Assembly: GCA_964516765.1 (NCBI GenBank)
Contig: CAZEWZ010000007.1
Span: forward strand, 4,828-68,827
Reading direction: 5' to 3'
From: an uncultured Cryomorphaceae bacterium
GTDB lineage: Bacteria; Bacteroidota; Bacteroidia; Flavobacteriales; UBA7430
Length of the DNA stretch: 64,000 nt
Positions 23,171-63,664 of the stretch are shown one piece after another. Within the stretch, counting starts at the first letter, position 1. Each line of letters opens with the position of its first letter. Position numbers and translations under genes: made by a program. The notes below the pieces were generated by a model. The model made no database searches. It was not told the origin of the DNA and saw only the letters and a program-made list of their open reading frames with translations.

Positions 23171-23171
23171 T

Positions 23172-33582: not shown

Positions 33583-33586
33583 AATT

Positions 33587-34765: not shown

Positions 34766-34775
34766 TTGTAGTATA

Positions 34776-39746: not shown

Positions 39747-39844
39747 ATTTATTAAATTAATTTGCAAAAAATTAACGTAAAAAAATAAGAATTTGCGACG
39801 TTTTTTGTTGAAAGTCAAGATCATCTTAATTGAGCCATCAAATA

Positions 39845-44713: not shown

Positions 44714-44793
44714 ATAATAGCTAATTTTCAATCTTTAATTTTTATCCTGACATTTCCATTTTGTATGTTTGTATGTTAAATGCATTTGATCAT

Positions 44794-47651: not shown

Positions 47652-50600
47652 ATGCGTTATAGCAATGCTGTAATAATATATTTTACTTTTATTATTTTTC
47701 TTCTGTTCACAATTACAGTGAAGGGTCAAGACGATAGTCTTTCTCTGCCTTATCCACAAATGCTTTTTGGTCTACCTGATAATTTCGAAGAATCCATTGA
47801 ATATAATGTCGAGATGGGTGAATTTAGATTCCAAAATAATATTGGGACCTTTTCTATAGATCGTCCCAAGTTTATGAGTGAGTCTTCTTATAAAACTTGG
47901 CTGTTTAATCAACAAGTTCATGATTATTGGCGTCAAAAAGTACAGTCAAATTTACTTAATCAAGGGGTTGCTGGAACTAAGCCAAAACTTCAAATAGGTG
48001 GTGAATCTTTTAGTAGAATATTTGGAGGTAACACAGTAGATATTCGTCCTCAAGGAGCGGCCGAATTAACTTTTGCTGGAAATGTCGACAAAACAAAAAA
48101 TCCCAATCTAACCGAAAATCAGCAAAATAACGCGAGTTTTAATTTTGATCAGAGTATTCAAATGAATGTGATTGGTAAGATTGGTACTAAGCTTTCACTG
48201 AGGACTAATTACGATACAAAAAGTCAGTTTGATTTTGAAAATCAAATGAAATTAGAATATTCAGGTGATGAGGATCAAATTATCAAAAAGATCGAGTTAG
48301 GTAATGTTAGTCTACCTCTTAGTGGTTCCCTAATATCTGGTACACAAAGCCTTTTTGGAATGAAAACACAGTTTCAATTTGGGAAAACTACTCTGACGGC
48401 AGTCTTCTCCGAACAAAAATCTGAAACAAGTACTATTCGAGTAGATGGTGGAGCTCAGACTACAAATTTTGAGATTTTCGCTGATTCTTATGAAGCAAAT
48501 AAACACTTTTTTTTAGGCCAATATTTTTATGACAATTATGATAATTCCTTGTCAAATATGCCGATTGTTACTTCAAATATAACTATAACAAATATTGAGG
48601 TATGGGTTACCAACAAAACGGGTGTGACACAAAATGTGCGAAATATTTTAGCTTTTCAAGATTTAGGAGAAAATATCAACCAAGTTTACAATTCTCAAAT
48701 TTCTCCTGGTACATCTAATGGATATAATCCAGATAATGAAAATAATAGTTTGGCCCCAAGTAACTTAGTTTTAGATTTTCCAAATATTAGGAATGTTAGT
48801 CAAGTTACTACATTGTTGAATAGTGCTGGTTTTGAACAATCAGTAGATTTTGAGAAAATTGAGAATGCTAAAAAATTAACCAATTCTGAATACAGTTTTG
48901 ATCCTCGCTTAGGTTTCATTTCTTTAAATCAAGCGCTCAACTCTGATGAGGTCTTGGGAGTCGCGTACCAATATACTGTCAATGGAGCAGTTTCCCAAGT
49001 TGGAGAATTGTCTATGGATATTTCGTCGCCAGATGTGCTAGTTCTTAAGTTACTAAAAAGTACCACAATAAATATTGATTTACCTATGTGGAATCTTTTA
49101 ATGAAAAATGTTTATTCATTGGGAGCTTACCAGGTCAATAAAGAAGATTTTGACTTACAGATTTTATATCAAGATGATGAATCAGGAACTCCTCTCCCTT
49201 ATATTCCTGAAGAAGGCATGAGTGGTGAACTTCTCATACAGAAAATGAATCTAGACAACCTTAACCAGAATAATGATCCAGGACCAAATGGAGTCTTTGA
49301 CTTTATTCCTGATTTAACCATAAGAACATCTAATGGACGAGTGTATTTGCCGGCAAAAGAGCCATTTGGTAGTTATTTGAGAGCCAAGTTTATAGAGGCC
49401 GGATTGACCAATACCCTGGCAGATCAATATGTTTTTGAGGCCTTGTATGATTCCACTCAAACGGCAGCTTCTCAGGTAGCCGAACTTAATAAATTTATTT
49501 TAAAAGGACAGTATAAATCTTCTTCTGGAGCCGATATACCTCTTAATGCCATGTCAATTCCTCAGGGTTCTGTCACAGTATCAATGGGGGGAGCTCCTCT
49601 AGAGGAAAATGTTCATTATACTGTAGATTATAATTTAGGTCGTGTGAAAATCATTGATGAGGGAATTTTAAGCTCTGGACAGCAAATAGAGGTCCAGTTA
49701 GAAAATAATTCGGGTTATACTTGGATGACCAAACGGTATTTGGGACTTCATGCTGATTATAAATATAGTGATAATCTGATTTTTGGTGCGACACTCTTGA
49801 ATCTTTCAGAAAACAGCCAATCTCCAAAAATTAATATGGGAGATGAGCCTATTTCAAATACTATATGGGGATTTAATGGCTCTTATAAAACCGACGCTCC
49901 TCTTTTAACAAAATTGATTGACAAACTTCCGTTAATACAAACAAAAGAAAAGTCAAATATTGTTTTAACAGGAGAATTTGCTCAATTTATTCCAGGACAT
50001 CCAAAGTCGATTAATGTAGATAAAACTGGAACAGCTTATATTGATGATTTTGAAAATAGCCAATCTCCTATTGATTTAAGATCATCATTAGCTTGGAATT
50101 TAGCTAGTGTTCCTCAAGATGAAATGCTATTTCCAGAAGCTATTTTGACTAATGATTTGAGGTACGGATACAATAGAGCACTAATGTCGTGGTATACAAT
50201 TAACTCCGACTTGCAAAGAGAAACAGCTTATTCTCCTAGTCATTTAAATGATGAAGATAGAGAGGCACCATATGTTAGAGAGATTTCTATCAATGAAATT
50301 TTCCCTGATAAAGATATTCCCCATGGCCAACCTCTTCGATTAAGAACTTTTGATTTAGCCTTTTATCCCAATGAAAGAGGTCCTTATAACTTTGATGTGG
50401 AAGGTGAGGCCGGGATTTCTTTTGGTGTAAATCAAGAGGGAGATTTAAATAATCCATCTTCTAGATGGGGAGGTGTGGTCAGAGAAATTGATAATAATAA
50501 TTTTGAAGCTGCCAATATCGAGTTTTTAGAGTTTTGGATGATGGATCCCTTCATTGAAAATCCGACTGCTCCTGGAGGAGACTTTTACATCAATTTAGGG

Positions 50601-53600
50601 AATATTTCCGAAGATATTCTCAGGGATTCAAGAAAAAGTTATGAAAATGGCCTACCCATAGATGGAAGTGATGAGAATATAGATACCACTGCCTGGGGGA
50701 GGGTGCCTTCTGTTCAGGCTTTGGTCAATGCTTTTAGCAGTGGAACGGATGCTAGATCCCTTCAAGATGTTGGTATAGATGGTATGAATGACGATTTAGA
50801 AAGAACTTTTATTTCTTTTGTAGGCGGAGAAACTCAATCGTATTTAGCTAAAATGAGTGCCTATCATGGAGAGGGTTCAAATGCCTATACAAAGGCTTAT
50901 AATGATCCAGCATCAGATAACTATCATTTCTACTACGGCGACGATTACAATTCTGAGGAAATAGGAATTCTTGAACGCTATAAACTATTTAATGGGTTAG
51001 AAAGGAACTCTCCCATTGATAATAATTCACAATCTTCCTATAGCCAATTACCGGATGTGGAGGATATAAATAACGATTATACTCTGAGTGAGTCCGAATC
51101 CTATTTTCAATATGAAATTAGTATGCGACCCCAAGACCTGCAAAATGTAGGTAGTAATTATATTACCTCAGTAATCGAAAATGCAGGACCTAATAACGAT
51201 ACTAGATGGATTCAGTTCAAGGTGCCTATTCGTTCGTTTGATAATAAGATTGGGAGTATCCCAGATTTTAAATCTATCCGATTCATGAGGTTATTTATGA
51301 AAGGTTTTGAGAATCAAACAGTTCTTCGATTTGCAACTCTAGATATGGTAAGAGGAGAATGGAGGAAATATTTGAATAGTCTGATTGATCCCGGGATGCC
51401 AATTGAGAATGAGCAAACTATGTTTGATATTTCTGTAGTAAATTTAGAGGAGAATGGCCGGCGAGATCCAATTAATTATGTTCTTCCTCCAGGAATTGAA
51501 CGTGAACAAATCTTGGGATCTACAAATGTTCAGCAACAAAATGAACAATCGATCAGTTTTAAAGTATGTGATTTGCAAAATGGCGATTCTAGAGGTGCTT
51601 TTAAAAATGTAACTATGGATATGCGGACTTACAACAAGATTAAGTTGTTTGTCCACGCGGAAGAAATAAGTCCCACAGAACCTCTTATAGATAGTGATTT
51701 GAGTATGTTTATTAGGGTGGGTACAGACTATAATTCAAACTATTATGAGTATGAAATCCCTTTAAAAGTTACCCCATGGGGTTCTTCAGCTCGAAGTGAT
51801 GTGTGGCCTGCGGAAAATGAGGTGGAAATTGATTTTGATTTATTAAAAGAAGCCAAGGCTGCAAGAAACAACGAAATTAGAAATGGTAATATACAGGTCA
51901 GTTTTACAGAGCCTTTTTCATACCAAGTGCCGGATGAAAATCGTAGAATATCTATTATTGGGAATCCTAATCTGGGAAATGTTCGAACTATTATGTTAGG
52001 GGTAAGAAATCCACTTTTAGATGCTGTTTTTAATCCTTTAGATGATGAGCTGCCTAAATGTGCCGAGTTGTGGATAAATGAACTTCGCCTTACCGACTTT
52101 GACGAAAGAGGCGGTTATGCAGCAAAGGCACAATTAAAAACAAGGCTTGCAGATATAGGGAGTATGACGCTTGCGGGAAACATAAGTACCGTTGGGTTTG
52201 GTAGCTTAGAGCAAAGTGTAACCGAAAGAAATAAGGAAGAAACACGACAGTATAATTTCACTTCAAATATGGAATTAGGGAAGTTATTTCCAGAAAGTGT
52301 AAATGTAAAGATACCACTATATGTGGGAATCTCGGAAACAGTTTTAACTCCTCAGTTTAACCCCTTAGATCCTGATGTTGAACTGCAAGCGACTCTCTCC
52401 GATGAAGATTTAAGTCAAGGAGCCAGAGATACATTAAAGAGCGTTACACAGAACTATACTCTAAGACGTTCTATTAATTTCACCAATGTAAGAAAAGAAC
52501 AAAGCTCAGGAGGAGGTAATAAATCCTCTCGTGAATCAGGAGGAGCTAAAGGATCTATGTCCCCGGGTAGAGGAGCTAGAGGTGGTGCGAAAAGCAAATT
52601 ATATGATATTGAGAATATCAGTTTGAGCTACTCTTACAATGAGGTGTTTAATAGGAATATTAACACTGAGTTTAGTCGTATGATTGAGCATAATGGTGGG
52701 GTAGGTTACAATTTTAGTAATAGTCCCAAAAATCACAAGCCTTTTGGTAAAATAAAATTCATTAAAAAGTCAAAGTACTTGAGGCTAATTAAGGACTTTA
52801 ATTTTTACTTACTCCCAAGAACTATCTCTATGCGCACGGACTTTAATAAGTCTTACTCTGAGACAAAAATGAGGAATATCGCGAGTTTAAATACTACCCA
52901 AGCACTAAATATTGTTGAACCTGATACTATGTTCAATAAGTTATTTAATCTCACGCAAAATTACAATCTCAAGTATGACTTAACCAGAAGTTTAAAATTA
53001 AATTTCTCTTCTAACACTCGATCTGTTGTGGATGAACCACTGGGCAAGGTGGATACTCAAGAGGAAAGAGATGCCTTGAGAGATAGTGTTTTATCTTTTG
53101 GTCGACCTACTATGTATCACCATCAATTTGATGCCAGATATACGGTGCCTATTAATAAGTTTCCTCTTACTGATTGGATTAGTTTGACATTAAATTACGA
53201 TGGAACCTATGATTGGAATGCAGGTTCGATTGCCTTAATTAACGATTCAATTAATTTGGGTAACACAATTCAAAACTCTAATAAAAAAAGAATCAATGCC
53301 CAATTAAACATGAAAACCTTTTATAATAAGGTGCCTTTTTTAAAGAAATTAAATTCCAATGCTAGCTCGAAAACAGGAAGAGGTGGGAAAAGTGATCCAC
53401 GAGGAGGACGCTCAGGATCAAAATCAGACGCCAAAGACTCTAAAGCAAAGAAAACTCCTTCAGGCAATGACTCTAAAAATCAAAAAGAGACTAACGAAAA
53501 TAACGAAGACGAAGAAAAAGAAAATGTGTTTGCTAAAGTCTTGGAGCATGTTGCACGAACGATTATTTCCGTAAAAAATGTAACTTTAAGTTATGATGAA

Positions 53601-54935
53601 ACCAATAGAACAATGATACCGGGATTCCTTCCTAGGTCGGGATTTATGGGGTTTGAAGAAAGATTTGATATAACTTCTGCCCCAGGATGGAGATTTTTGT
53701 TTGGTGACCAACAAAATATGAGACCGATTCTTATTCAGAATAAATGGATTACATCAGATACTTTATTGAATCAACAATATACACAGCAATATACTTCCAG
53801 ATTAAATTTTAGATCTACTCTTGAGCCTATTCGAAAGTTACGGATTCAGTTGACAGCTCAAAGAAGTCAAAATAGAAACAATTCTGAAACATACCGAAAT
53901 ATTGGTGGTATTGAATCCCCTGTATTTGAATCCTTAAACCAAAATGAGACAGGAAGCTTTACAATGTCTTTCCTGGCTATTGGAACTGCTTTTAGGCCAA
54001 TGAATTTAAATTCATCAGAAACCTTTGACGATTTTAGAAATATACGTTCTGAAATTTCAAAACGTCTAGCCGCTCAATATAATATCGCTTATGACCCTTC
54101 GGATCCTTATGCTATTGGTTTAGGACCAAGTTCTCAAGAGGTTCTCATTCCAGCATTCATGGCTGCTTACTCAGGAAAAAGCGCTTCTTTGCAGACACTA
54201 GATAAATTTCCAGCCATCCCGATGCCTAACTGGACTGTGAAATATGATGGTTTAATTAATATTCCATGGGTGAAAAAAAGATTTAAGACTGCTTCAATTT
54301 CTCATGGATACAGCTCTACCTATTCTGTGAATTCATATCAAACAAATCTTTTTTATGGTGCTCTAGAAAATCCCTTTACCGGAACAATAGAATCAAATCC
54401 TGAGAATTTCGATGCCAATGGAAATTATCTTACTCAATATCAAATGCAAACCATTAATATCAGTGAGCAGTTTAATCCACTCATAAAGCTAGATGTAACT
54501 CTCAATAATAGTTTGACTACCCGAATGGAGTTTAGTAAAGACCGCCAAGTTTCGTTGAGTTTAAGTAATAACCAAATACAAGAGCAATCTGGTAAGAGTT
54601 TTACCCTTGGGGTAGGTTATCGGCTGACAGATTTTGAAATTAATCTTTCTACGGCAAACGGAAATAAAACCTTTTCTTCTAATTTAGATTTGAATTTGGA
54701 TGTCTCGGTAAGAAAAACAGCTTCAGCAATCAGAAGCCTTGAAGAAAATACCCATCAGCCCGTTAGTGGAAGTACAGATGTATCTATTAAGACCTCTGCT
54801 GATTATGTATTAAGTGAGCGAATCAATATTCAGTTGTTTTACGATCGAATAGTCAAGAAATATGAAGTTGCTAACTCTTTTGATACTGTGAACAGTAGTT
54901 TTGGTATTAAACTTCGTTTCTCATTTGGTAGTTAA
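47652..54935 (+). CDS. sprA: T9SS outer-membrane translocon SprA/Sov
   Basis: 2427 aa; RIFGGNTVDIRPQG, FDQSIQMNVIGKIG, NQMKLEYSG, WNLLMKNVY, YIDDFE, ELWINELR; C-terminal barrel signal FGIKLRFSFG; ruvA-sprA synteny. Confidence 0.95.
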   Translation: MRYSNAVIIYFTFIIFLLFTITVKGQDDSLSLPYPQMLFGLPDNFEESIEYNVEMGEFRFQNNIGTFSIDRPKFMSESSYKTWLFNQQVHDYWRQKVQSNLLNQGVAGTKPKLQIGGESFSRIFGGNTVDIRPQGAAELTFAGNVDKTKNPNLTENQQNNASFNFDQSIQMNVIGKIGTKLSLRTNYDTKSQFDFENQMKLEYSGDEDQIIKKIELGNVSLPLSGSLISGTQSLFGMKTQFQFGKTTLTAVFSEQKSETSTIRVDGGAQTTNFEIFADSYEANKHFFLGQYFYDNYDNSLSNMPIVTSNITITNIEVWVTNKTGVTQNVRNILAFQDLGENINQVYNSQISPGTSNGYNPDNENNSLAPSNLVLDFPNIRNVSQVTTLLNSAGFEQSVDFEKIENAKKLTNSEYSFDPRLGFISLNQALNSDEVLGVAYQYTVNGAVSQVGELSMDISSPDVLVLKLLKSTTINIDLPMWNLLMKNVYSLGAYQVNKEDFDLQILYQDDESGTPLPYIPEEGMSGELLIQKMNLDNLNQNNDPGPNGVFDFIPDLTIRTSNGRVYLPAKEPFGSYLRAKFIEAGLTNTLADQYVFEALYDSTQTAASQVAELNKFILKGQYKSSSGADIPLNAMSIPQGSVTVSMGGAPLEENVHYTVDYNLGRVKIIDEGILSSGQQIEVQLENNSGYTWMTKRYLGLHADYKYSDNLIFGATLLNLSENSQSPKINMGDEPISNTIWGFNGSYKTDAPLLTKLIDKLPLIQTKEKSNIVLTGEFAQFIPGHPKSINVDKTGTAYIDDFENSQSPIDLRSSLAWNLASVPQDEMLFPEAILTNDLRYGYNRALMSWYTINSDLQRETAYSPSHLNDEDREAPYVREISINEIFPDKDIPHGQPLRLRTFDLAFYPNERGPYNFDVEGEAGISFGVNQEGDLNNPSSRWGGVVREIDNNNFEAANIEFLEFWMMDPFIENPTAPGGDFYINLGNISEDILRDSRKSYENGLPIDGSDENIDTTAWGRVPSVQALVNAFSSGTDARSLQDVGIDGMNDDLERTFISFVGGETQSYLAKMSAYHGEGSNAYTKAYNDPASDNYHFYYGDDYNSEEIGILERYKLFNGLERNSPIDNNSQSSYSQLPDVEDINNDYTLSESESYFQYEISMRPQDLQNVGSNYITSVIENAGPNNDTRWIQFKVPIRSFDNKIGSIPDFKSIRFMRLFMKGFENQTVLRFATLDMVRGEWRKYLNSLIDPGMPIENEQTMFDISVVNLEENGRRDPINYVLPPGIEREQILGSTNVQQQNEQSISFKVCDLQNGDSRGAFKNVTMDMRTYNKIKLFVHAEEISPTEPLIDSDLSMFIRVGTDYNSNYYEYEIPLKVTPWGSSARSDVWPAENEVEIDFDLLKEAKAARNNEIRNGNIQVSFTEPFSYQVPDENRRISIIGNPNLGNVRTIMLGVRNPLLDAVFNPLDDELPKCAELWINELRLTDFDERGGYAAKAQLKTRLADIGSMTLAGNISTVGFGSLEQSVTERNKEETRQYNFTSNMELGKLFPESVNVKIPLYVGISETVLTPQFNPLDPDVELQATLSDEDLSQGARDTLKSVTQNYTLRRSINFTNVRKEQSSGGGNKSSRESGGAKGSMSPGRGARGGAKSKLYDIENISLSYSYNEVFNRNINTEFSRMIEHNGGVGYNFSNSPKNHKPFGKIKFIKKSKYLRLIKDFNFYLLPRTISMRTDFNKSYSETKMRNIASLNTTQALNIVEPDTMFNKLFNLTQNYNLKYDLTRSLKLNFSSNTRSVVDEPLGKVDTQEERDALRDSVLSFGRPTMYHHQFDARYTVPINKFPLTDWISLTLNYDGTYDWNAGSIALINDSINLGNTIQNSNKKRINAQLNMKTFYNKVPFLKKLNSNASSKTGRGGKSDPRGGRSGSKSDAKDSKAKKTPSGNDSKNQKETNENNEDEEKENVFAKVLEHVARTIISVKNVTLSYDETNRTMIPGFLPRSGFMGFEERFDITSAPGWRFLFGDQQNMRPILIQNKWITSDTLLNQQYTQQYTSRLNFRSTLEPIRKLRIQLTAQRSQNRNNSETYRNIGGIESPVFESLNQNETGSFTMSFLAIGTAFRPMNLNSSETFDDFRNIRSEISKRLAAQYNIAYDPSDPYAIGLGPSSQEVLIPAFMAAYSGKSASLQTLDKFPAIPMPNWTVKYDGLINIPWVKKRFKTASISHGYSSTYSVNSYQTNLFYGALENPFTGTIESNPENFDANGNYLTQYQMQTINISEQFNPLIKLDVTLNNSLTTRMEFSKDRQVSLSLSNNQIQEQSGKSFTLGVGYRLTDFEINLSTANGNKTFSSNLDLNLDVSVRKTASAIRSLEENTHQPVSGSTDVSIKTSADYVLSERINIQLFYDRIVKKYEVANSFDTVNSSFGIKLRFSFGS

Positions 54936-55263: not shown

Positions 55264-56850
55264 ATGAAAAATCTTTTACAATTTAGCACCATTATTTTGC
55301 TGCTAAGCTCATTTATTACTAATGCTCAGACTCTTCTATCCGAAAATTTTGAAGATGGTATTGGTGCCTGGACCACAGTAGATTCTGATGGTGACGGTGT
55401 TAATTGGTTAATTGCTGATTACGGTGATGGTAATGTAGCTATTTCTCAATCATGGACTGATAACACTATTTTATATCCAGACAACTGGTTAATTTCTGAG
55501 TCAATGGATTTTTCTTCTGTTACTAATCCTAATCTTTTTTGGAAAGTCAAAGCACAAGATCCGGCTTGGGCAGATGAAAATTATACTGTTTATGTCTCCA
55601 CTTCCTCTGACATTAATATGCTAGAGACATCTGAAATTTCATTTAATGAAGTTGTTGGAGTATCGGGTGGAGAATATATGACAAGAGCCCTTGACTTATC
55701 CTCACTTGTCGGAGAAGCTAGCGTTTTTGTAGCTTTTAGACATCATAATGTTTCTGACATGTTCAATATTAATATTGATGATATAATAGTTGCCGATGTA
55801 GTTGGAGATAATGTAGATGTAACTTTATCTTCTTCTAATTACAATGTGGCTACTAGTCCTAATGCTTCCGCTCAATTTACTTTTAATGTAACTAGTTTTG
55901 GAGCTGGAGATTTATCTGATTATGAGTTTCAATATACCATAGACGGTCAAATATCCACTATCAATAGTTCATCCAGTATCGCTTTGGGAGAGTCTGCATC
56001 TTACAGCATTGATTTAACTTTTGGTGAATATACCGCCAGTGTTCAAGTCCTAAATTCCGCAGGAGAACTTATTGGAGAAGAGGTGTTTAACCTTTCAGTA
56101 GTAGCTCCTGTTCCTAATTTTTCTTTAACTGATTCATATGGCAGCCAACATGACTTGTACGAAACTATTGAAAAAGGTGATGTAGTTCTTTTAGATTTCA
56201 TGGCTTCATGGTGTGGGCCATGCGAAACGTCAACCCCTGAAATTAATTCAGTTTGGGAAGATTATGGTGAAGGCATTTCTGGTTTTCAAGTTTTTTCTTT
56301 TACCACCGAACCTACAGATAATAACTCAATTATAAACAACTTAGGTTGGGGAGGCTATTATCCCAAGTTTTCATATACAGAAGAAGGGAATAATTTATAT
56401 GCGCATTACAATTCACTTTATGGAGAGGATGGTATTCCATTGTTTATTATGATTTGTCCAGATGTAAACAATCCAGGTTTTTCTGAAGTTTCATGGTCCA
56501 CAGTTGGTTGGGCTGGCGGAGGTCAATCTCAGAATGAGACAGAAAATGCTTTATTAGACTGTAATCCTTCACTTGATATTGAACTATTATCTACTCATGA
56601 ATCGGTTGTGATTTATCCGAATCCTTCGTCTTCTAATGTTTATGTTGAACTTGATTTAAGTGACACTAAAGAGGTTACTGTTGAGGTCTTAAATCTTCTG
56701 GGTGAGATAGTTTACGTTTATTCCGAAAGCCACACCGCTGGTATTTCTACGTTTCAGTTGACTTCTGAAAATTGGTCTAATGGAATTTATCAGATCAATA
56801 TGCAAATTGATAATGAGTGGATTTCCAGGTCATTAGAGATTATAAAATAA
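55264..56850 (+). CDS. T9SS cargo: cleaved-adhesin (choice-of-anchor J) + Ig-like + thioredoxin-like (WCGPC) + type A CTD
   Basis: ENFE...WTTVDSDGDG...PDNWLIS...ENYTVYVST...VAFRHHN...IDDI; PNFSLTD...LLDFMASWCGPC...GIP; IYPNPSS CTD. Confidence 0.88.
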   Translation: MKNLLQFSTIILLLSSFITNAQTLLSENFEDGIGAWTTVDSDGDGVNWLIADYGDGNVAISQSWTDNTILYPDNWLISESMDFSSVTNPNLFWKVKAQDPAWADENYTVYVSTSSDINMLETSEISFNEVVGVSGGEYMTRALDLSSLVGEASVFVAFRHHNVSDMFNINIDDIIVADVVGDNVDVTLSSSNYNVATSPNASAQFTFNVTSFGAGDLSDYEFQYTIDGQISTINSSSSIALGESASYSIDLTFGEYTASVQVLNSAGELIGEEVFNLSVVAPVPNFSLTDSYGSQHDLYETIEKGDVVLLDFMASWCGPCETSTPEINSVWEDYGEGISGFQVFSFTTEPTDNNSIINNLGWGGYYPKFSYTEEGNNLYAHYNSLYGEDGIPLFIMICPDVNNPGFSEVSWSTVGWAGGGQSQNETENALLDCNPSLDIELLSTHESVVIYPNPSSSNVYVELDLSDTKEVTVEVLNLLGEIVYVYSESHTAGISTFQLTSENWSNGIYQINMQIDNEWISRSLEIIK

Positions 56851-56868
56851 ATCTTGGTTTATCTTTTT

Positions 56869-56900
56869 AAAAAGGCTTCCTAGTTTTAGGAAGCCTTTTT
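56869..56900 (+). terminator. Intrinsic terminator
   Basis: AAAAAGGCTTCCTA-GTTT-TAGGAAGCCTTTTT perfect 14-bp stem followed by T. Confidence 0.92.
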
Positions 56901-56903
56901 TAT

Positions 56904-56911
56904 TAACTTTG
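56904..56911 (+). promoter_or_regulatory. Bacteroidota -7 box for the second redoxin gene
   Basis: TAACTTTG directly after the terminator, about 32 nt before the ATG. Confidence 0.65.
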
Positions 56912-56943
56912 TATTTAATATTTAGTTAAAACTTAATAATCAG

Positions 56944-58416
56944 ATGATGAAAAAATTGTTTTTTATTTTTTATTTTGCCATGATTCCTTTCGGAGTATCA
57001 TTTGCACAACTTCCATCTGGTTCTGTAGCCCCAAATTTCATTATTACAGATATCGATGGGGTAGAACATAATTTGTTTGAGATTTTAGATTCAGGAAAGT
57101 CAGTTTTGTTAGATCTTTTTGCCGTTTGGTGTGGTCCCTGTTGGACCTTTGCGGAAACAGGTGTTTTTGAAGATTTTAACAATACATATGGAAACTCAAT
57201 TTTAGCTATAGCTGTCGAAGCAGACCCTAGTACTCCAGTTGATTATCTTAATGGAGGAGGTAATTCAATAGGTGATTGGACAGAGTTGATAGGATATTCA
57301 CTTGCAAATGATGATTCCATCGGAGATAATTATGCACTAGCTTTTTATCCTACGATTTATTTGATTTGTCCAGATCGTACTGTAAATGAGATTGGCCAGA
57401 CCTCTCCTCAAGGAGGATATTGGAATGTTCCATCTCTTGCTCAAGAAGTATTCCAATATACATGTGAATCCATTGAAGGAATAAATGGTAATATTCAATC
57501 CTACAATTCAGAACTCAACTTTTGTGGACAAGAGAAAATTGAGCCAGTAGTGAGTATATCAAACTCTGGTAGCGAAGTAATCACATTTTGCACAGTAGAA
57601 ACAATTGTTGATGGAGAAGTCGTCAGTTCTACAGATTGGAACGGATTCCTTCCTTATCTAGCTACCGAACAAGTAGTTTTGGAGGAAATTCCCGGAAATC
57701 TGTTAAATGTTACATTTAATATTCAGGTTGAAGACGATGTTCTTGAAACAGACAATAGTATTTCTGTTCAATTTATTCCATCTCCTCAATCACATGGTTT
57801 TATTGAAATACAGGTTAATACAGATTTCTATCCAAACCAAACTTCATGGGAAATTAAAAATTCTTCTGGTCAAGTGGTTGCCTCTCAGTCTTATGAGGGT
57901 GAAGCTTTAGGTGGTGGACCAAACGCAGGTGCTGAGCTAAATCATTCTGTTACCTTAGAACAAGATTGTTATACATTTATTGCAATGGATTCTGAAGGAA
58001 ACGGACAACCTTCTTTTTCTGCACCGGGATATACCCAAGCAGGTTCTGTTTTAGTGACAGATGCCAATGGATTAGAATTAATGAATATTTCAGGCGATTG
58101 GGGCTCAATGCAATCAGTTGACTTTGAGGTTTCCCAAGGATTAGGAATCGATTCTGAAATCAATCCATTTCTTTCCTTATTTCCTAATCCATCTTCTTCC
58201 AAAGCATCTTTAAAAGTTAATTTATTAGAGACAGAAGAAATTTATATCCAAGTAATCAATATCTTCGGACAGTCAATTTTTGTCTATCATAAGGTTTTGT
58301 CTGAGGGAATACATGAGGTTGATATCCCTTTGATGTATTGGGATTCTGGAATTTATTTTGTTGAAATGAATTTGGGTGGTCATTCTCAAACACAAAAATT
58401 GATTGTAACGGACTAA
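56944..58416 (+). CDS. T9SS cargo: thioredoxin-like (WCGPC) + CARDB/Ig-like + beta-sandwich module + type A CTD
   Basis: Signal peptide; APNFIITDIDG...LLDLFAVWCGPCW...YPTIYLICPD; DVLETDNS; TDFYPNQTSW...CYTFIAMDSEGNG; LFPNPSS CTD. Confidence 0.88.
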   Translation: MMKKLFFIFYFAMIPFGVSFAQLPSGSVAPNFIITDIDGVEHNLFEILDSGKSVLLDLFAVWCGPCWTFAETGVFEDFNNTYGNSILAIAVEADPSTPVDYLNGGGNSIGDWTELIGYSLANDDSIGDNYALAFYPTIYLICPDRTVNEIGQTSPQGGYWNVPSLAQEVFQYTCESIEGINGNIQSYNSELNFCGQEKIEPVVSISNSGSEVITFCTVETIVDGEVVSSTDWNGFLPYLATEQVVLEEIPGNLLNVTFNIQVEDDVLETDNSISVQFIPSPQSHGFIEIQVNTDFYPNQTSWEIKNSSGQVVASQSYEGEALGGGPNAGAELNHSVTLEQDCYTFIAMDSEGNGQPSFSAPGYTQAGSVLVTDANGLELMNISGDWGSMQSVDFEVSQGLGIDSEINPFLSLFPNPSSSKASLKVNLLETEEIYIQVINIFGQSIFVYHKVLSEGIHEVDIPLMYWDSGIYFVEMNLGGHSQTQKLIVTD

Positions 58417-58488
58417 TTTCATGTAATCTGATCTATACTTAATAAGTATTGGTATGTAATTTGTAGAATAAATTAAAAACTAACAATT

Positions 58489-59172
58489 ATGAAAAATTAT
58501 TTACTTACATTTATTTCTCTAATTAGCTTGACAGTATTTTCGCAGTCTCTGTCTATTGAGCCTCAGGAATATTATTTCTCCCCTTTTGGAGAACTATGTA
58601 ATGCTGATTTAGATATTACCAACCTGAGCACTCAAGATGTAAGTGTTCATGTTACTAGATCTGTAATTACAGATGTATCGAATTATTTCTGTTGGGGAAT
58701 CACATGTTATCCACCAAATAGCGATGCAATATTTACCTCAAGTAATCCTTTATTAATTCCAGCCGGTGAGACTCTTACTGGTGCTAATTCTTTTAAAGGC
58801 ACTGTAAATAATTTGCCTGAAGAATCTAGTTTATCGATTAACTATTGTTTTTGGATAGAAGGTAGTCCAGATGATGAGGTTTGTACAGATTTAATCTATA
58901 CAAATAAAGATATGTACGTCTCTTCGTCTGATATTTCTTTTATTCCAGAAATTTTCCCAAACCCAGCATTCAATCAGCTGAAAATAAAAGTAAAAGATGG
59001 TGTTGAATCTGAATTTATCCTGTTCGACATGCTCGGGAATAAAGTACTTCACAAAAAGATGCAAATCTCTTCAGTTATTAATATAAGTTCACTCGAATCT
59101 GGGATTTATTTCTATTCTTTTAATGTCCAGGGAGAAGATTCTGAGGTTCAAAAGCTAGTTGTCTCACATTAG
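58489..59172 (+). CDS. Small T9SS cargo, Ig-like domain with YFCWGITCY motif + type A CTD
   Basis: Signal peptide, IFPNPAFN...LFDMLGN...GIYFY...QKLVVSH. Confidence 0.85.
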   Translation: MKNYLLTFISLISLTVFSQSLSIEPQEYYFSPFGELCNADLDITNLSTQDVSVHVTRSVITDVSNYFCWGITCYPPNSDAIFTSSNPLLIPAGETLTGANSFKGTVNNLPEESSLSINYCFWIEGSPDDEVCTDLIYTNKDMYVSSSDISFIPEIFPNPAFNQLKIKVKDGVESEFILFDMLGNKVLHKKMQISSVINISSLESGIYFYSFNVQGEDSEVQKLVVSH

Positions 59173-59194
59173 CCAATTACATGAAATACTAACC

Positions 59195-59848
59195 ATGAAA
59201 TGTTTATTGCTTCCTATTTTTGTTGTGTTTAGTTTGAATATTTCATCACAGTCTCTATCAATTAATCCCCAAACATCCTACTATGCTCAAATGGGTGAGA
59301 CTTGTGCTGCTAATTTTAATGTTACTAATCTAAGTAATGAAGATCTTAATGTCGTAGTATCTAGGTCCATGCCTGACTATGATATTACTACCTATTTTTG
59401 TTGGGGTCCTACTTGTTATACTCCATCTTCAGATATTTCAACCACTTCTATAACGATTCCTGCAGGACAAAGTTTTGGAGGATTTACTGGATATGTCCAG
59501 GGTATACCAGAAGCATCTACTTTTTTGATTAATTATTGTTTTTATCCTGAAGACGACCCTTTAGAAAGAGTTTGTGCTGATGTGAACTTTACATCTATAT
59601 CCCTGTCTATTCTCGAGCCAGAAACTATGAAATTATTCCCCAATCCCGCTGTAGATTATTTATATGTTGAAGGCCAAGGATACTTCGATTTTATACTGTA
59701 TGACATAGTTGGGAATTTGGTACTCTCAGAAATTTTAGTTGGGAAAAGTCGTTTTGATATTTCTGATTTTGAGCCTGGAATATATTATTATTCTTTTGGA
59801 AGTTTAGGCATAAAATATGAAGTTAAAAAGCTAGTTATTGTTCATTAA
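59195..59848 (+). CDS. Small T9SS cargo, tandem paralog with YFCWGPTCY motif + type A CTD (start likely 59195)
   Basis: Signal MKCLLLPIFVVFSLNISSQ, LFPNPAVD...LYDIVGN...GIYYY...KKLVIVH; aligns by eye with 58489-59172. Confidence 0.85.
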   Translation: MKCLLLPIFVVFSLNISSQSLSINPQTSYYAQMGETCAANFNVTNLSNEDLNVVVSRSMPDYDITTYFCWGPTCYTPSSDISTTSITIPAGQSFGGFTGYVQGIPEASTFLINYCFYPEDDPLERVCADVNFTSISLSILEPETMKLFPNPAVDYLYVEGQGYFDFILYDIVGNLVLSEILVGKSRFDISDFEPGIYYYSFGSLGIKYEVKKLVIVH

Positions 59849-59952: not shown

Positions 59953-62391
59953 ATGAAGGTATCATATAGCTGGATCAAAGAATATATAAATGTGGACCTA
60001 AGTCCTGAAGACTGTGCGAAAGTTCTTACCGATACTGGATTAGAGGTAGAAGGAATTAGTGAGTATGAACATGTTAAAGGTGGTCTTAAAGGCTTACTTG
60101 TTGGTGAGGTAATTACCTGCGAAGCTCATCCAAATGCCGACCGATTGAACAAAACTAAGGTAGATATAGGTTCTGAAGTTCTTGATATTGTTTGTGGTGC
60201 ACCAAATGTAGCTAAAGGATTAAAAGTAGTTGTAGCCCCTGTAGGAACTGTCTTGTGGGATGGCGATGGGAATTCATTTAAGATTAAAAAAGGAAAGATA
60301 AGAGGTGAATCGTCTATTGGAATGATTTGTGGTGCTGACGAAATAGGAATGGGTGAAGCCAATAATAGCATAATTGTTTTAGATACCAAGGCTGAAGTAG
60401 GTTCACTAGTTAGCTCTCATTTCAATCTAGAATCGGATACTGTTTTTGATATTGGTTTAACCCCAAATCGTTCAGATGCGATGGGGCATATGGGGGTAGC
60501 TCTAGATCTTAGAGCAGGATTGGCTGCTCAAGGAAATAAACTAAATCTTTGTTCGCCCTCTGTGGATGCATTTAAATTAGATCGTATTGAACGATCTATA
60601 GAGGTCGTCGTAGATGATTTTGTTGCATGTCCTAGATATGCTGGTATATGTATTTCTGGACTTACTGTGAAAGAATCTCCTGAGTGGATTCGAAGAAGAT
60701 TACTCGCAATAGGCATTACTCCCCAAAATAATCTTATCGATATTACCAATTATGTTTTGCATGAGTCTGGAAACCCCCTACATGTATATGATGCAGACAA
60801 GATTAAGGGAAATAAGATTGTAGTTAAAAAGTTTTCTAAAGACACTAAGTTTACGACTCTTGACAAGGTAGAACGAAATTTGCATTCAGATGATTTAATG
60901 ATTTGCGATGAGGAATCGGCTATTTGTTTGGCTGGAGTTTTCGGAGGTTTAAAATCTGGAGTATCAGAAAATACTACATCTATATTTTTAGAATCGGCAT
61001 TTTTTAATCCAGTATCCATTAGAAAGAGTGCTAAACGGCATGGATTAAATACTGATGCTTCTTTTCGATTTGAACGTTCGGTTAATCCAGATAGCGTAGT
61101 TTGGTCATTGAAGCGAGCTTCACTTCTAATACAAGAGATCGCTGGAGGGTATTTGAGCTCTGAATTAATTGATATATATCCTGAGCCAATTGTTGCCTTC
61201 GAAATTCAATTTTCATATAAAAAATGTAACGAACTTATTGGAGAAGTACTAGACCGCGATTCCATCAAAGAGATTCTTCATAATTTGGAGATAAAAATAT
61301 TAGAAGAAAGTGAAGATACCCTCATGTTATCTGTTCCTCCTTACAGAGCAGATGTCCAAAGAGAGGTTGATGTAATCGAAGAAGTATTAAGGATTTACGG
61401 CTATAATAATATTTCGATGTCAGGAAGAATTAATGCCTCCTTGTCAATAGTATCTAAGCCTGATAACCAAATGATTCAGGAAAAAATTTCCAATTTATTA
61501 AGTGATAATGGTTTTTATGAGGCCATGTGTAATTCGCTAATAAAAAAATCTCATACCGAAGAATCACAGGTATTCAAACCAGAATCACAAGTTGTGATTT
61601 TAAATCCGCTTAGTCAAGATCTAAATGTCCTTCGACAATCTCTTATTTTTGGAGGTTTGGATAGCATCGCTTTCAATTTGAATAGAAAATCTGCAGATGT
61701 ATTTTTGTATGAATTTGGAAAAATTTACAACCGCTACGAGGATAAATTTATTGAAGAACAGCAATTAGCTCTTTGGATGACCGGAAAAAAACAAGAAGAA
61801 AATTGGAATGTTGGGTCACAAAATGTAGATTTCTTTTTTATGAAGGGGATAGTAGAAAAACTCCTACAAAAGTTAGGTATTCAGCGTGGAATATCCTTGA
61901 ATCCTTCTAAATCTGATTTTTTTCAAGAAGGAATTAATTTTAAGGTACGCAAGAAAAAAATTGCTGAAATAGGTTTGTTGAAAAAGAGATTGCTGAAAAA
62001 AAATGGAATTAAGCAAGATGTCTTTTACGCACAATTGAACTGGGATTTAATTATTGAGATGAGTAAAGATCAAAAGATTAAACATAAAGCTGTTTCCAAA
62101 TTCCCATCGGTGCGCAGAGATTTAGCTCTGTTATTAAACAAAGAAGTCTCTTTTTCGGAAATAGAAAATATTGCTTTCCGAACCGAAAAGCATCTTCTCA
62201 AAGAAGTCAAGCTTTTTGATGTTTATCAAGGAACTAAATTAGCAGCAGAAAAAAAATCATATGCTCTTAGTTTTACTTTTAGAGATGAAGACAAAACGTT
62301 GGTAGATAAAGTAGTAAATAAATCCATATTGCAAATATTTAAATCTTTGGAGCAACAGCTGAGTGCTGAACTTCGAGACGGTGTCTTATAG
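59953..62391 (+). CDS. pheT: Phenylalanine--tRNA ligase beta subunit
   Basis: LTDTGLEVE, HPNADRL, VCGAPNV, LTPNRSD, DASFRFER, SKFPSVRRDLA, AELR C-terminus. Confidence 0.97.
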   Translation: MKVSYSWIKEYINVDLSPEDCAKVLTDTGLEVEGISEYEHVKGGLKGLLVGEVITCEAHPNADRLNKTKVDIGSEVLDIVCGAPNVAKGLKVVVAPVGTVLWDGDGNSFKIKKGKIRGESSIGMICGADEIGMGEANNSIIVLDTKAEVGSLVSSHFNLESDTVFDIGLTPNRSDAMGHMGVALDLRAGLAAQGNKLNLCSPSVDAFKLDRIERSIEVVVDDFVACPRYAGICISGLTVKESPEWIRRRLLAIGITPQNNLIDITNYVLHESGNPLHVYDADKIKGNKIVVKKFSKDTKFTTLDKVERNLHSDDLMICDEESAICLAGVFGGLKSGVSENTTSIFLESAFFNPVSIRKSAKRHGLNTDASFRFERSVNPDSVVWSLKRASLLIQEIAGGYLSSELIDIYPEPIVAFEIQFSYKKCNELIGEVLDRDSIKEILHNLEIKILEESEDTLMLSVPPYRADVQREVDVIEEVLRIYGYNNISMSGRINASLSIVSKPDNQMIQEKISNLLSDNGFYEAMCNSLIKKSHTEESQVFKPESQVVILNPLSQDLNVLRQSLIFGGLDSIAFNLNRKSADVFLYEFGKIYNRYEDKFIEEQQLALWMTGKKQEENWNVGSQNVDFFFMKGIVEKLLQKLGIQRGISLNPSKSDFFQEGINFKVRKKKIAEIGLLKKRLLKKNGIKQDVFYAQLNWDLIIEMSKDQKIKHKAVSKFPSVRRDLALLLNKEVSFSEIENIAFRTEKHLLKEVKLFDVYQGTKLAAEKKSYALSFTFRDEDKTLVDKVVNKSILQIFKSLEQQLSAELRDGVL

Positions 62392-62431: not shown

Positions 62432-63664
62432 ATGGAAGAGAAAAATGTAAATTGTTCATTTTGCGGTCGCTCTAAGCAAGAGACTGATGTTTTAATTGCC
62501 GGTACCACAGGTCATATATGTAACCTATGTATTACCCAAGCTCACGAAATTATTTTGGAAGAAACCGAACACAATGAAAAAGAAGTTCTCGCCAAAGAAT
62601 TTACTATTCAAAAGCCAATTGAAATAAAAGAGCATTTAGATCTTTTTGTGATTGGTCAGGATCAAGCCAAAAAAGTTCTTTCTGTTTCGGTATATAATCA
62701 TTATAAGCGAATACTACAGGAACGAAATTCAGACGAGGAGGTAGAAATTGAAAAGTCTAATATAATGATGGTTGGTAAAACTGGGACTGGAAAAACTCTT
62801 CTAGCTCGTTCTATTGCAAAAATGCTAAACGTTCCATTTACAATTGTGGATGCTACAGTACTAACTGAAGCAGGATATGTTGGGGAAGATGTGGAAGGCA
62901 TTTTATCTCGCTTACTTCAAGCATGTGATTTTGATGTAGATCTCGCTGAACGTGGGATTATATTTATTGATGAAATTGATAAGATTGCCAGAAAGAGTGA
63001 CAATCCGTCTATCACAAGAGATGTCTCAGGAGAAGGAGTTCAGCAAGCAATGTTGAAGCTATTGGAGGGTACAGTTGTCAATGTTCCTCCTCAAGGAGGA
63101 AGGAAGCATCCAGATCAAAAATATATAAAAGTCGACACAAAAAATATTTTGTTTATCTGCGGTGGAGCTTTTGATGGAATCGAAAGACATATCCGTAATA
63201 GAATGAATACCAACGCATTAGGCTTTGGTAATGCGGCTGAAGACCAGATAGATGAAGAAAATATACTTAAGTACATTAACCCCCAAGATGTCAAAAGTTT
63301 TGGAATTATTCCAGAGCTCATCGGAAGACTACCTGTTTTAACACATCTTGATCCACTTGATAAAAAGGCTTTGAGAAATATACTTACAGAGCCTAAAAAT
63401 TCGATTATTAAGCAATACAGAAAATTATTTGAAATAGATGATATAGTACTTAAGATTGACGATGAAGTATATGATTACATCGTCAGTCAGGCAGATAATT
63501 TTGGCCTTGGAGCAAGAGGTCTTCGTTCTATCTGTGAGGCAATTATGGTTGATGCTATGTTTGAATTGCCCTCTTCTAACGAAAAAGAATTTCATGTTAG
63601 CCTTACCTATGCCAAGGAAAAGCTATCAAAAAATAAACTTAGACAGCTTCGTGCCGTTAGTTAA
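62432..63664 (+). CDS. clpX: ATP-dependent Clp protease ATP-binding subunit ClpX
   Basis: CSFCG...ICNLC zinc-binding domain, [39 protein letters not shown]. Confidence 0.97.

What the first reader, a model, noticed from the sequence alone, without database searches (positions are those of the whole stretch)
55264..59848. Candidate undescribed system: T9SS-exported thiol-redox cluster next to the SprA translocon
Seen: four consecutive type A CTD genes follow sprA. Two carry the reducing-type WCGPC motif (56209-56223, 57127-57141), a cis-Pro loop, and an extra ICPD Cys with a later Cys that could form a structural disulfide. Two are small Cys-rich paralogs. Established: CGPC is the cytoplasmic thioredoxin motif, DsbD/CcdA deliver electrons only as far as the periplasm, and gingipains need a reduced catalytic Cys. 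Inference: a cell-surface disulfide-reduction module that could keep the Kgp-like protease active in oxic water or unfold disulfide-rich particulate proteins. The electron source outside the outer membrane is unknown.
Basis: partly seen in the sequence, partly recalled or inferred. Interest (0 to 1): 0.72.

Follow-up and report, generated by a model that had tools for sequence, protein, structure and literature searches.

The report
T9SS-exported thioredoxin genes beside SprA

Summary
Four consecutive type A CTD genes follow sprA. g1 and g2 carry a TlpA/ResA-like thioredoxin domain with WCGPC, a cis-Pro and a family-invariant extra Cys pair. g3 and g4 are 41% identical paralogs.

These are very probably T9SS-exported thiol-disulfide oxidoreductases. 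The kind is not undescribed: P. gingivalis HBP35 is a T9SS cargo with measured thioredoxin activity.

The proposed link to the Kgp-like C25 protease has no support. That gene lies 41 kb away, and no C25 homolog occurs in 86 related loci (1.39 Mb).

What is new comes from relatives:
- The exported redox protein is paired with a g3-like Cys-hairpin protein in 25 of 88 loci.
- In 23 loci it sits beside a periplasmic TlpA-like reductase, a DUF6029 outer-membrane barrel and an Omp28 CxxC lipoprotein.
- In 25 loci it lies within 10 kb of ruvA-sprA, in at least three different gene arrangements.

I found no paper describing this module. It offers a candidate, untested route for reducing power to reach the cell surface. 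Whether the proteins reduce or oxidise, and what they act on, cannot be read from sequence.

Verdict: new variant of a known kind; interest moderate to high.

The parts
47652..54935 (+). sprA, the T9SS outer-membrane translocon (context; upstream neighbour)
   Evidence: TIGR04189 2557 bits and PF14349. A 328-nt gap separates it from g1.
55264..56850 (+). g1: signal peptide (cleavage before Q22), Cleaved_Adhesin/choice-of-anchor J domain (aa 23-176), weak CARDB-like sandwich (aa 180-280), TlpA-like thioredoxin domain (aa 282-440), type A CTD (aa 450-528)
   Evidence: Pfam and NCBIfam. The family alignment A5 keeps the same architecture in 22 sequences.
56209..56223 (+). g1 active site WCGPC (C317, C320)
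   Evidence: C317, P319 and C320 are invariant in A5.
56437..56463 (+). g1 cis-Pro loop (P392) and the ICPD Cys (C398); the partner Cys C433 is at 56560-56562
   Evidence: P392, C398, P399 and C433 are invariant in A5.
56869..56900 (+). Intrinsic-terminator-like hairpin after g1 (14 bp stem followed by a T run)
56904..56911 (+). TAACTTTG, a match to the Bacteroidota -7 promoter box TAnnTTTG, 33 nt before the g2 start
   Evidence: This is a consensus match only.
56944..58416 (+). g2: signal peptide, TlpA/ResA-like thioredoxin domain (aa 23-178), CARDB-like sandwich (aa 180-285), unassigned beta-sandwich (aa 286-410), type A CTD (aa 412-490)
   Evidence: Pfam. AF2 model, mean pLDDT 83. Foldseek to ResA, TlpA and Etrx with target-normalised TM 0.7-0.76. 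249 homologs.
57127..57141 (+). g2 active site WCGPC (C63, C66)
   Evidence: W62, C63, P65 and C66 are invariant in 44 sequences.
57349..57375 (+). g2 cis-Pro (P136) and the ICPD Cys (C142); the partner Cys C174 is at 57463-57465
   Evidence: Invariant in A3. In the model C142 ends strand E137-141 and C174 ends helix H162-173.
58489..59172 (+). g3: signal peptide, Ig-like beta-sandwich with a Cys hairpin (aa 20-142), type A CTD (aa 155-227)
   Evidence: Pfam finds the CTD only. AF2 pLDDT 83, two sandwiches, generic fold matches.
58690..58707 (+). g3 Cys hairpin C68-W-G-I-T-C73
   Evidence: C68, W69 and C73 are invariant in 30 sequences. They lie on adjacent strands E65-69 and E72-74.
59195..59848 (+). 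g4: paralog of g3 (41% identity); Cys hairpin at 59399-59416; CTD from about 59633
   Evidence: The mechanical ORF starts at TTG 59159 and overlaps g3; ATG 59195 gives a normal signal peptide.

Best explanation
g1 and g2 encode Sec-exported T9SS type A cargo proteins. Each combines a catalytically complete TlpA/ResA-like thioredoxin domain with adhesin-like and Ig-like modules. The catalytic features are WCGPC, a cis-Pro and a subfamily-specific structural Cys pair. They should fold in the periplasm, pass through SprA and have the CTD removed. They would then be displayed on, or released from, the cell surface, where they exchange disulfides with other proteins, as P. gingivalis HBP35 does. 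g3 and g4 are Ig-like cargo proteins with one invariant Cys hairpin. They are probably co-transcribed with g2 (g2-g3-g4) and are the most likely dedicated partner or substrate. The four genes are the exported half of a module conserved across Flavobacteriales. In relatives its other half is a periplasmic TlpA-like reductase, a DUF6029 outer-membrane barrel and an Omp28 CxxC lipoprotein, usually next to malic enzyme-ruvA-sprA. Shown here: domain content, catalytic residues, export signals and conserved gene association. Inferred: surface location, catalytic activity, g3/g4 as partner, and a reductive or isomerase direction, which I favour from the TlpA-like fold and the CGPC motif.
For: Domains and motifs. 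Invariance of the CxPC, cis-Pro and extra Cys pair in both families. Fold: the AF2 model of g2 (pLDDT 83) matches ResA, TlpA and the pneumococcal surface thioredoxins Etrx1/2; the best sequence match is the WCGPC protein 4k9z. Operon signals: a terminator after g1, a -7 box before g2, and gaps of 72 and 22 nt. Pairing with g3-like genes: 25 of 88 loci. The reciprocal test holds: two of three distant g3-like genes sit next to a T9SS-exported protein with an Omp28-like domain; one of these partners keeps a TCGPC site, the other (L087) has lost its CxxC. Extended module with TlpA-DUF6029-Omp28: 23 of 88 loci, including cultured Brumimicrobium salinarum, Salibacter and Winogradskyella. Proximity to ruvA-sprA: 25 of 88 loci, in at least three arrangements. 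Precedent for activity and surface display: HBP35 (PMC2907840).
Against: No activity, localisation or redox-state data exist for any family member. A CGPC thioredoxin with no reductant in oxic seawater would sit oxidised, and no electron route across the outer membrane is known. The TlpA-DUF6029-Omp28 genes are absent from this 64 kb window, so in this organism the two halves are unlinked or one is missing. Adjacency to sprA may be inherited synteny: housekeeping genes (recG, malic enzyme, ruvA, pheT, clpX) are conserved around it too. 51 of 88 loci, mostly Saprospiraceae and Chitinophagales or short contigs, show none of the associations.
Confidence: 0.6

Rival explanations
1. One reading: the surface thioredoxins keep the Kgp-like C25 cysteine protease reduced and active in oxic water.
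For: The window does encode a genuine Kgp-like CTD protease at 10616-13966 (259 bits to Lys-gingipain, with the propeptide). Cysteine peptidases need a reduced catalytic Cys (established knowledge).
Against: The gene is 41 kb away, with roughly 35 genes in between. tblastn found no C25 homolog in 86 related loci totalling 1.39 Mb. The module occurs in many lineages with unrelated neighbours.
Confidence: 0.05
2. The proteins act as oxidases or isomerases. They would introduce or shuffle disulfides in co-secreted cargo (g3/g4 and others), with electrons leaving to oxygen or copper, in a QSOX-like relay.
For: HBP35 complements an E. coli dsbA mutant, so it can act as an oxidant (PMC2907840). In sister lineages the g3-type domain is fused to a type 1 copper cupredoxin: L001, L084 and P0127-P0131. 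No external reductant is known.
Against: The TlpA/ResA fold and the CGPC motif are typical of reductants. The window's own g3 and g4 have no cupredoxin. The neighbouring genes in relatives include a reductase-type TlpA.
Confidence: 0.2
3. The thioredoxin domains serve the secretion machinery itself. They might manage the disulfides that couple PorG/SprF to GldK, keep the surface sortase PorU (a C25 Cys peptidase) reduced, or act as a translocon-associated folding catalyst like the PPI subunit of SprA.
For: Proximity to ruvA-sprA is kept in 25 of 88 loci across different arrangements. A T9SS plug gene lies 6 kb from the module in Winogradskyella. T9SS function depends on specific disulfides, and the paper that shows this does not mention thioredoxin, Dsb, isomerase or any oxidoreductase (PMC12635249). 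SprA carries a PPI subunit of unknown function (PMC10994853).
Against: The PorG/SprF-GldK disulfides are periplasmic, whereas CTD proteins are exported. In most lineages malic enzyme and ruvA lie between the module and sprA, so co-transcription is unlikely. Many family members lie far from any T9SS gene. No direct evidence exists.
Confidence: 0.1
4. A copper-handling pair analogous to TlpA-ScoI. The exported thioredoxin would reduce the CxxxC/CxxxxC hairpin of g3/g4 so that it can bind copper.
For: The TlpA-ScoI mixed-disulfide complex is among the fold matches (4txo). The g3 family has an invariant Cys pair spaced as CxxxC or CxxxxC. Cupredoxin fusions occur in sister lineages.
Against: g3 has an Ig-like fold, not a Sco fold. 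No conserved His or Met accompanies the Cys pair. The two Cys lie on adjacent strands of a tight hairpin, a common site for a plain structural disulfide.
Confidence: 0.07

Closest known systems
P. gingivalis HBP35 (PG0616/PGN_0659)
   Same: Signal peptide, N-terminal thioredoxin motif and type A CTD. It is secreted by the T9SS and attached to the surface via anionic LPS. The recombinant protein reduces insulin, and this depends on the two CxxC Cys (PMC2907840, PMC3120885).
   Different: HBP35 is 344 aa, binds hemin and comes from an anaerobe. It has no reported CARDB-like or adhesin modules, no g3-like partner and no TlpA-DUF6029-Omp28 neighbourhood. I could not obtain its sequence, so homology of the thioredoxin domains beyond the shared fold is untested.
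Periplasmic TlpA/ResA/CcmG-type thiol-disulfide reductases (e.g. B. subtilis ResA; B. vulgatus 4k9z/4ka0)
   Same: Same fold (target-normalised TM 0.7-0.76), the same N-terminal extension, the cis-Pro, and WCxPC (WCGPC in 4k9z).
   Different: Those proteins stay in the periplasm or on the outer face of the cytoplasmic membrane and are recharged by CcdA/DsbD. g1 and g2 carry a T9SS export domain, extra sandwich domains and an additional invariant Cys pair that 4k9z lacks.
S. pneumoniae Etrx1/Etrx2 surface thioredoxin lipoproteins
   Same: TlpA-like thioredoxins exposed outside the cytoplasmic membrane that deliver electrons to extracellular targets (PMC3914529). They are structural matches.
   Different: This is a Gram-positive system with direct access to CcdA in the membrane. 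It has no outer membrane to cross, and its partner is MsrAB2, which is not seen here.
TlpA-DUF6029-Omp28 gene triad of Bacteroidota (uncharacterised)
   Same: It is the immediate neighbour of the exported thioredoxin gene in 23 of 88 related loci. Omp28-type domains with CxxC replace the thioredoxin domain in a sister architecture.
   Different: It is not present in this window. I found no functional literature for DUF6029.

Membership tests
T9SS type A cargo | N-terminal Sec signal peptide | tested here: met
   All four proteins start with a hydrophobic leader ending just before Gln (NAQ/T, FAQ/L, FSQ/S, SSQ/S), read directly from the translations. No signal-peptide predictor was run.
T9SS type A cargo | C-terminal type A sorting domain (PF18962/TIGR04183) at the extreme C-terminus | tested here: met
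   Pfam scores are 44.1, 46.3, 45.6 and 30.4 bits against a cut-off of 27. TIGR04183 scores are 34.2, 44.6, 40.9 and 24.5 against 23.
T9SS type A cargo | Secretion that depends on SprA/PorV, with CTD removal by PorU | not testable with these tools
   This needs secretome or mutant data.
TlpA/ResA-like thioredoxin-fold oxidoreductase | Thioredoxin fold with the TlpA-type N-terminal hairpin and central insertion | tested here: met
   The AF2 model (pLDDT about 90 over aa 30-170) matches ResA, TlpA and Etrx with target-normalised TM 0.65-0.76. This was done for g2 only; g1 rests on sequence.
TlpA/ResA-like thioredoxin-fold oxidoreductase | CxxC active site at the N-terminus of helix 1, plus a cis-Pro loop | tested here: met
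   WCGPC and the cis-Pro are invariant across 44 and 22 family members.
TlpA/ResA-like thioredoxin-fold oxidoreductase | Curated family score (NCBIfam ResA, TlpA, DsbE or thioredoxin equivalogs) | tested here: not met
   The best scores are 31-33 bits against cut-offs of 97-230. The proteins are not orthologs of any named enzyme; only the general Pfam domains pass.
TlpA/ResA-like thioredoxin-fold oxidoreductase | Thiol-disulfide exchange activity and a low redox potential | not testable with these tools
   This needs an insulin or DTNB assay and a redox titration.
HBP35-like surface thioredoxin | Thioredoxin motif plus CTD in one polypeptide | tested here: met
HBP35-like surface thioredoxin | Sequence homology to HBP35 beyond the generic thioredoxin and CTD domains; hemin binding | not tested
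   The HBP35 sequence was not retrievable. It is not among the top 60 PDB hits of the family profile.
Conserved Flavobacteriales module (exported Trx/Omp28-CTD + Cys-hairpin protein + TlpA + DUF6029 + Omp28) | Exported thioredoxin-fold CTD gene adjacent to a g3-like Cys-hairpin gene | tested here: met
   The window has g2-g3-g4. The same pairing occurs in 25 of 88 loci.
Conserved Flavobacteriales module (exported Trx/Omp28-CTD + Cys-hairpin protein + TlpA + DUF6029 + Omp28) | Adjacent TlpA-DUF6029-Omp28 genes | tested here: not met
   tblastn finds none in the 64 kb window. The same holds for the closest clade, L001-L005 and L084.

The most novel reading that the evidence does not exclude
The module is an outer-membrane-spanning thiol-disulfide relay. 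A periplasmic TlpA-like reductase, charged by CcdA/DsbD, would pass reducing equivalents through the DUF6029 barrel and Omp28 CxxC lipoprotein pair to T9SS-displayed thioredoxin proteins and their Cys-hairpin partners. That would give a Gram-negative cell enzymatic reducing power on its outer surface. Uses could include keeping surface Cys enzymes such as PorU reduced, or opening disulfide-rich substrates.
Probability: 0.12. Interest if true: 0.9.

Novelty: new variant of a known kind. Interest (0 to 1): 0.6.

Why it matters
In Gram-negative bacteria, thiol-redox pathways are known only as far as the periplasm. HBP35 showed that a thioredoxin can be placed on a Bacteroidota surface, but nobody has explained how it would be recharged or what it acts on.

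This window led to a recurrent gene module in Flavobacteriales, including three named genomes (Brumimicrobium salinarum, a Salibacter sp. and a Winogradskyella sp.). The module joins T9SS-exported thioredoxin-fold proteins to a periplasmic reductase, an outer-membrane barrel and a CxxC lipoprotein, often beside the translocon gene. That makes the electron-source question testable by ordinary genetics and redox-state assays.

It also flags three families with no assigned function:
- the g3-like Cys-hairpin domain, which has no Pfam model;
- DUF6029;
- Omp28.

If the module only supplies ordinary secreted foldases, the result is a useful annotation of abundant marine Flavobacteriales proteins and no more.

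Tried and rejected
- Direct comparison with HBP35. A PDB profile search did not list it in the top 60, so homology is left untested.
- Pfam at E up to 5 on g2 domain 3 and on the g3 and g4 N-domains gave no family. g1 and g2 domain 2 gave only sub-threshold CARDB matches.
- Foldseek of the g3 model gave only generic Ig/FnIII-like matches (RbmA, transglutaminase barrels, FimC) and no functional lead. Full-length matches for g2 were low-TM multi-Ig proteins.
- C25 co-location test: no hit in 86 loci. The protease hypothesis is rejected as a neighbourhood-supported idea.
- The window's C25 as the sortase PorU: rejected. It scores 259 bits to Kgp and 22 bits to PorU, with only a weak PorU2 NCBIfam hit.
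- sigma-70 promoter and terminator scan: counts were at shuffle expectation. Only the hairpin at 56869-56900 is convincing.
- Rfam, tRNA and tandem-repeat scans found nothing in the window or the region.
- Literature searches for DUF6029, for Omp28 with TlpA and thioredoxin, and for surface or extracellular thioredoxin in Bacteroidetes found no description of the module. Two T9SS reviews mention no redox cargo other than HBP35.
- Cys-Cys distances in the AF2 models could not be measured because coordinates are not exposed. The structural disulfide rests on invariance and on secondary-structure position.
Full report
**What is in the window**

The window has about 35% G+C. Its closest named relatives are uncultured marine Flavobacteriales (MED-G21 and similar MAGs). 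Around the finding, every gene is on the + strand:

| Gene | Coordinates |
|---|---|
| recG | 42602-44713 |
| malic enzyme | 44761-47070 |
| ruvA | 47067-47648 |
| sprA | 47652-54935 |
| g1 | 55264-56850 |
| g2 | 56944-58416 |
| g3 | 58489-59172 |
| g4 | 59195-59848 (ORF opens at TTG 59159) |
| pheT | 59953-62391 |
| clpX | 62432-63664 |

sprA is unambiguous: TIGR04189 scores 2557 bits. All four downstream proteins begin with a signal peptide that ends just before a Gln. All four end in a type A sorting domain that passes the curated Pfam and NCBIfam cut-offs.

**The two thioredoxin proteins**

- g1 (528 aa) reads: Cleaved_Adhesin/choice-of-anchor J domain, a weak CARDB-like sandwich, a thioredoxin domain, then the CTD.
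- g2 (490 aa) reads: a thioredoxin domain, a CARDB-like sandwich, an unassigned sandwich, then the CTD.

The two thioredoxin domains are 34% identical. They share the same set of conserved features:
- WCGPC;
- a cis-Pro;
- a Cys immediately after the strand that follows the cis-Pro (I-C-P-D);
- a Cys at the end of the last helix.

All of these are invariant in 44 g2-family and 22 g1-family sequences.

The AF2 model of g2 (mean pLDDT 83) places the domain with ResA, TlpA, several Bacteroides TlpA-like proteins and the pneumococcal surface thioredoxins Etrx1/2. Target-normalised TM-scores are 0.65-0.76. The best sequence match among solved structures is a Bacteroides vulgatus putative thiol-disulfide oxidoreductase that also has WCGPC but lacks the extra Cys pair.

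So CGPC is normal for envelope TlpA-like proteins of this phylum. It does not mark a cytoplasmic enzyme that has been displaced. No named NCBIfam equivalog is reached, so these proteins are not orthologs of ResA, TlpA, DsbE or TrxA.

**The two small proteins**

g3 and g4 are 41% identical. Each is an Ig-like sandwich followed by the CTD (AF2 pLDDT 83). Fold matches are generic, and Pfam has no model for the N-terminal domain.

Within the close clade five Cys are conserved. Across the wider family only F-C-W-G-x(1-2)-C is invariant. These two Cys lie on adjacent strands of a tight hairpin.

A single-sequence search of 1.8 billion representative proteins found 122 clusters at E up to 0.001. Most have one or two copies of the domain followed by a CTD.

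**Transcription signals**

A 14-bp hairpin with a T run follows g1 (56869-56900). A TAACTTTG box, which matches the Bacteroidota -7 motif, lies 33 nt before g2. The g2-g3 gap is 72 nt and the g3-g4 gap is 22 nt.

I read g1 as monocistronic and g2-g3-g4 as one operon. This is inference from consensus matches.

**Relatives and gene neighbourhoods**

Both architectures are widespread:
- The g2 type has 249 hits in the protein collection. Full-length relatives occur in Cryomorphaceae, Crocinitomicaceae, Fluviicola, Lishizhenia, Flavobacterium paronense, Saprospiraceae and Chitinophagales.
- The g1 type has 152 hits, including cultured Brumimicrobium.
- In a sister architecture the thioredoxin domain is swapped for an Omp28-type domain that carries its own CxxC (TCGPC or WCGWC).

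In the closest clade the order ruvA-sprA-[one or two Trx-CTD]-[g3-like]-pheT-clpX is conserved. In several members the g3-type domain is fused to a type 1 copper cupredoxin.

In more distant Flavobacteriales the pair lies on the other side of the translocon operon, with these genes in order:

| Gene | Strand |
|---|---|
| sprA | - |
| ruvA | - |
| malic enzyme | - |
| g3-like | - |
| Trx-CTD | + |
| TlpA-like periplasmic thioredoxin, about 165 aa | + |
| DUF6029 barrel | + |
| Omp28 CxxC lipoprotein | + |
| small barrel | + |

A third arrangement puts the Trx-CTD gene 3-4 kb upstream of ruvA-sprA on the same strand. In Winogradskyella the module is complete but has no sprA nearby; a T9SS plug gene lies 6 kb away.

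Over 88 distinct loci the counts are:

| Feature within the fetched flank (10 kb or less each side) | Loci |
|---|---|
| ruvA or sprA | 25 |
| TlpA-DUF6029-Omp28 triad | 23 |
| g3-like ORF | 25 |
| triad together with ruvA or sprA | 16 |
| none of these | 51 |

For scale, a random gene in a 3-4 Mb genome lies within 10 kb of a given single-copy gene well under 1% of the time. These loci are phylogenetically related, so the counts are not independent events. The different arrangements do argue against purely frozen synteny. The last ten loci were chosen through g1 and g3 homologs, which biases the counts upward.

The reciprocal test also supports the pairing. Two of three distant g3-like genes lie next to a T9SS-exported protein with an Omp28-like domain, though the L087 partner has lost its CxxC. 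One of the two is again beside malic enzyme-ruvA-sprA and a TlpA gene.

The protease at 10616-13966 is indeed Kgp-like, with propeptide, catalytic domain, Ig-like domain and CTD. It scores 259 bits to Lys-gingipain and is not PorU. But it is 41 kb from the cluster, and tblastn found no C25 homolog in 86 related loci totalling 1.39 Mb. Gene neighbourhood gives the protease link no support.

The claim that the system is undescribed also needs qualifying. P. gingivalis HBP35 is a T9SS cargo with a thioredoxin motif. It reduces insulin in a CxxC-dependent way, occurs as a surface form attached to anionic polysaccharide, and complements an E. coli dsbA mutant (PMC2907840; PMC3120885).

**How it most likely works**

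Shown:
- export signals;
- a complete and conserved catalytic site;
- a conserved extra Cys pair, consistent with a protein built for an oxidising compartment;
- a conserved genomic partnership with a Cys-hairpin protein;
- in relatives, a conserved partnership with TlpA, DUF6029 and Omp28.

Inferred: the proteins are displayed on or released from the surface and exchange disulfides there, with g3 and g4 as partner or substrate.

I favour a reductive or isomerase role because of the fold and motif, but sequence cannot settle the direction. The dsbA complementation by HBP35 and the cupredoxin fusions keep an oxidase reading alive.

The TlpA-DUF6029-Omp28 neighbours are the one concrete lead. 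They are not in this window.

**Links to the secretion machine**

Recent work shows that T9SS function depends on specific disulfides between PorG/SprF and GldK; that paper does not mention thioredoxin, Dsb, isomerase or any oxidoreductase (PMC12635249). The F. johnsoniae translocon also carries a peptidyl-prolyl isomerase subunit of unknown function (PMC10994853). These facts make a machinery-related role conceivable, and so does the thought that the surface sortase PorU is itself a Cys peptidase.

Nothing here tests that idea. The PorG/SprF-GldK disulfides are periplasmic, whereas CTD proteins leave the periplasm.

**Novelty and verdict**

The protein kind is known (HBP35, and TlpA-like envelope reductases). 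The specific families, the Cys-hairpin partner and the recurrent module with TlpA-DUF6029-Omp28 near sprA are, as far as my literature searches reach, undescribed.

I rate it a new variant of a known kind, with interest 0.6. The most novel reading not excluded is an outer-membrane-spanning thiol relay, at a probability of about 0.12.

Noticed in passing
window 10616-13966 (+): A Kgp-like C25 cysteine peptidase with propeptide, catalytic domain, Ig-like domain and type A CTD. It scores 259 bits to Lys-gingipain and only 22 bits to PorU.
   Followed up: partly
window 24778-27171 (-): A 797-aa protein with a PKD domain and a type B (CHU_C/TIGR04131) T9SS sorting domain. Together with the esterase-like type A CTD protein at 38577-39824 (-), the window holds seven T9SS cargo genes.
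   Followed up: no
window 23139-24788 (+) and 29213-31732 (+): PafA-type alkaline phosphatase (NF042991, 731 bits) and a DUF4953 Met-zincin with DUF5117/DUF5118. These fit a particle- and polymer-scavenging lifestyle.
   Followed up: no
window 31795-37187 (-) and 40710-42479 (-): A fatty-acid beta-oxidation cluster (acyl-CoA dehydrogenase, thiolase, 3-hydroxyacyl-CoA dehydrogenase/enoyl-CoA hydratase fusion) with an AMP-binding acyl-CoA synthetase nearby.
   Followed up: no
L001 11534-12631; L084 13218-14195; P0127-P0131: In sister lineages the g3-type Cys-hairpin domain is fused to an N-terminal type 1 copper cupredoxin (site C-x4-H-x4-M), at the same position in the cluster.
   Followed up: partly
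L013 9344-9865 (-): Here the g3-like protein has no CTD. It has a lipoprotein signal followed by acidic residues (FFSCDDEE), so the same domain appears to be anchored by a different route.
   Followed up: no
L089 1300-3153 (-); L092 10001-11896; L093 10001-11917: A sister architecture: choice-of-anchor J, then CARDB, then an Omp28-type domain with its own CxxC (TCGPC or WCGWC), then a CTD. It occupies the same place in the module as the Trx-CTD gene.
   Followed up: partly
L092 2733-3989: In a Winogradskyella genome a T9SS plug-family gene (PF17116) lies 6 kb from the TlpA-DUF6029-exported Omp28-CTD module, which there has no sprA nearby.
   Followed up: no
window 52300-53700 (within sprA): SprA carries two long low-complexity inserts rich in Gly, Ser, Lys and Arg (for example SSGGGNKSSRESGGAKGS... 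and KTGRGGKSDPRGGRSGSKSD...). They were seen in the translation only.
   Followed up: no
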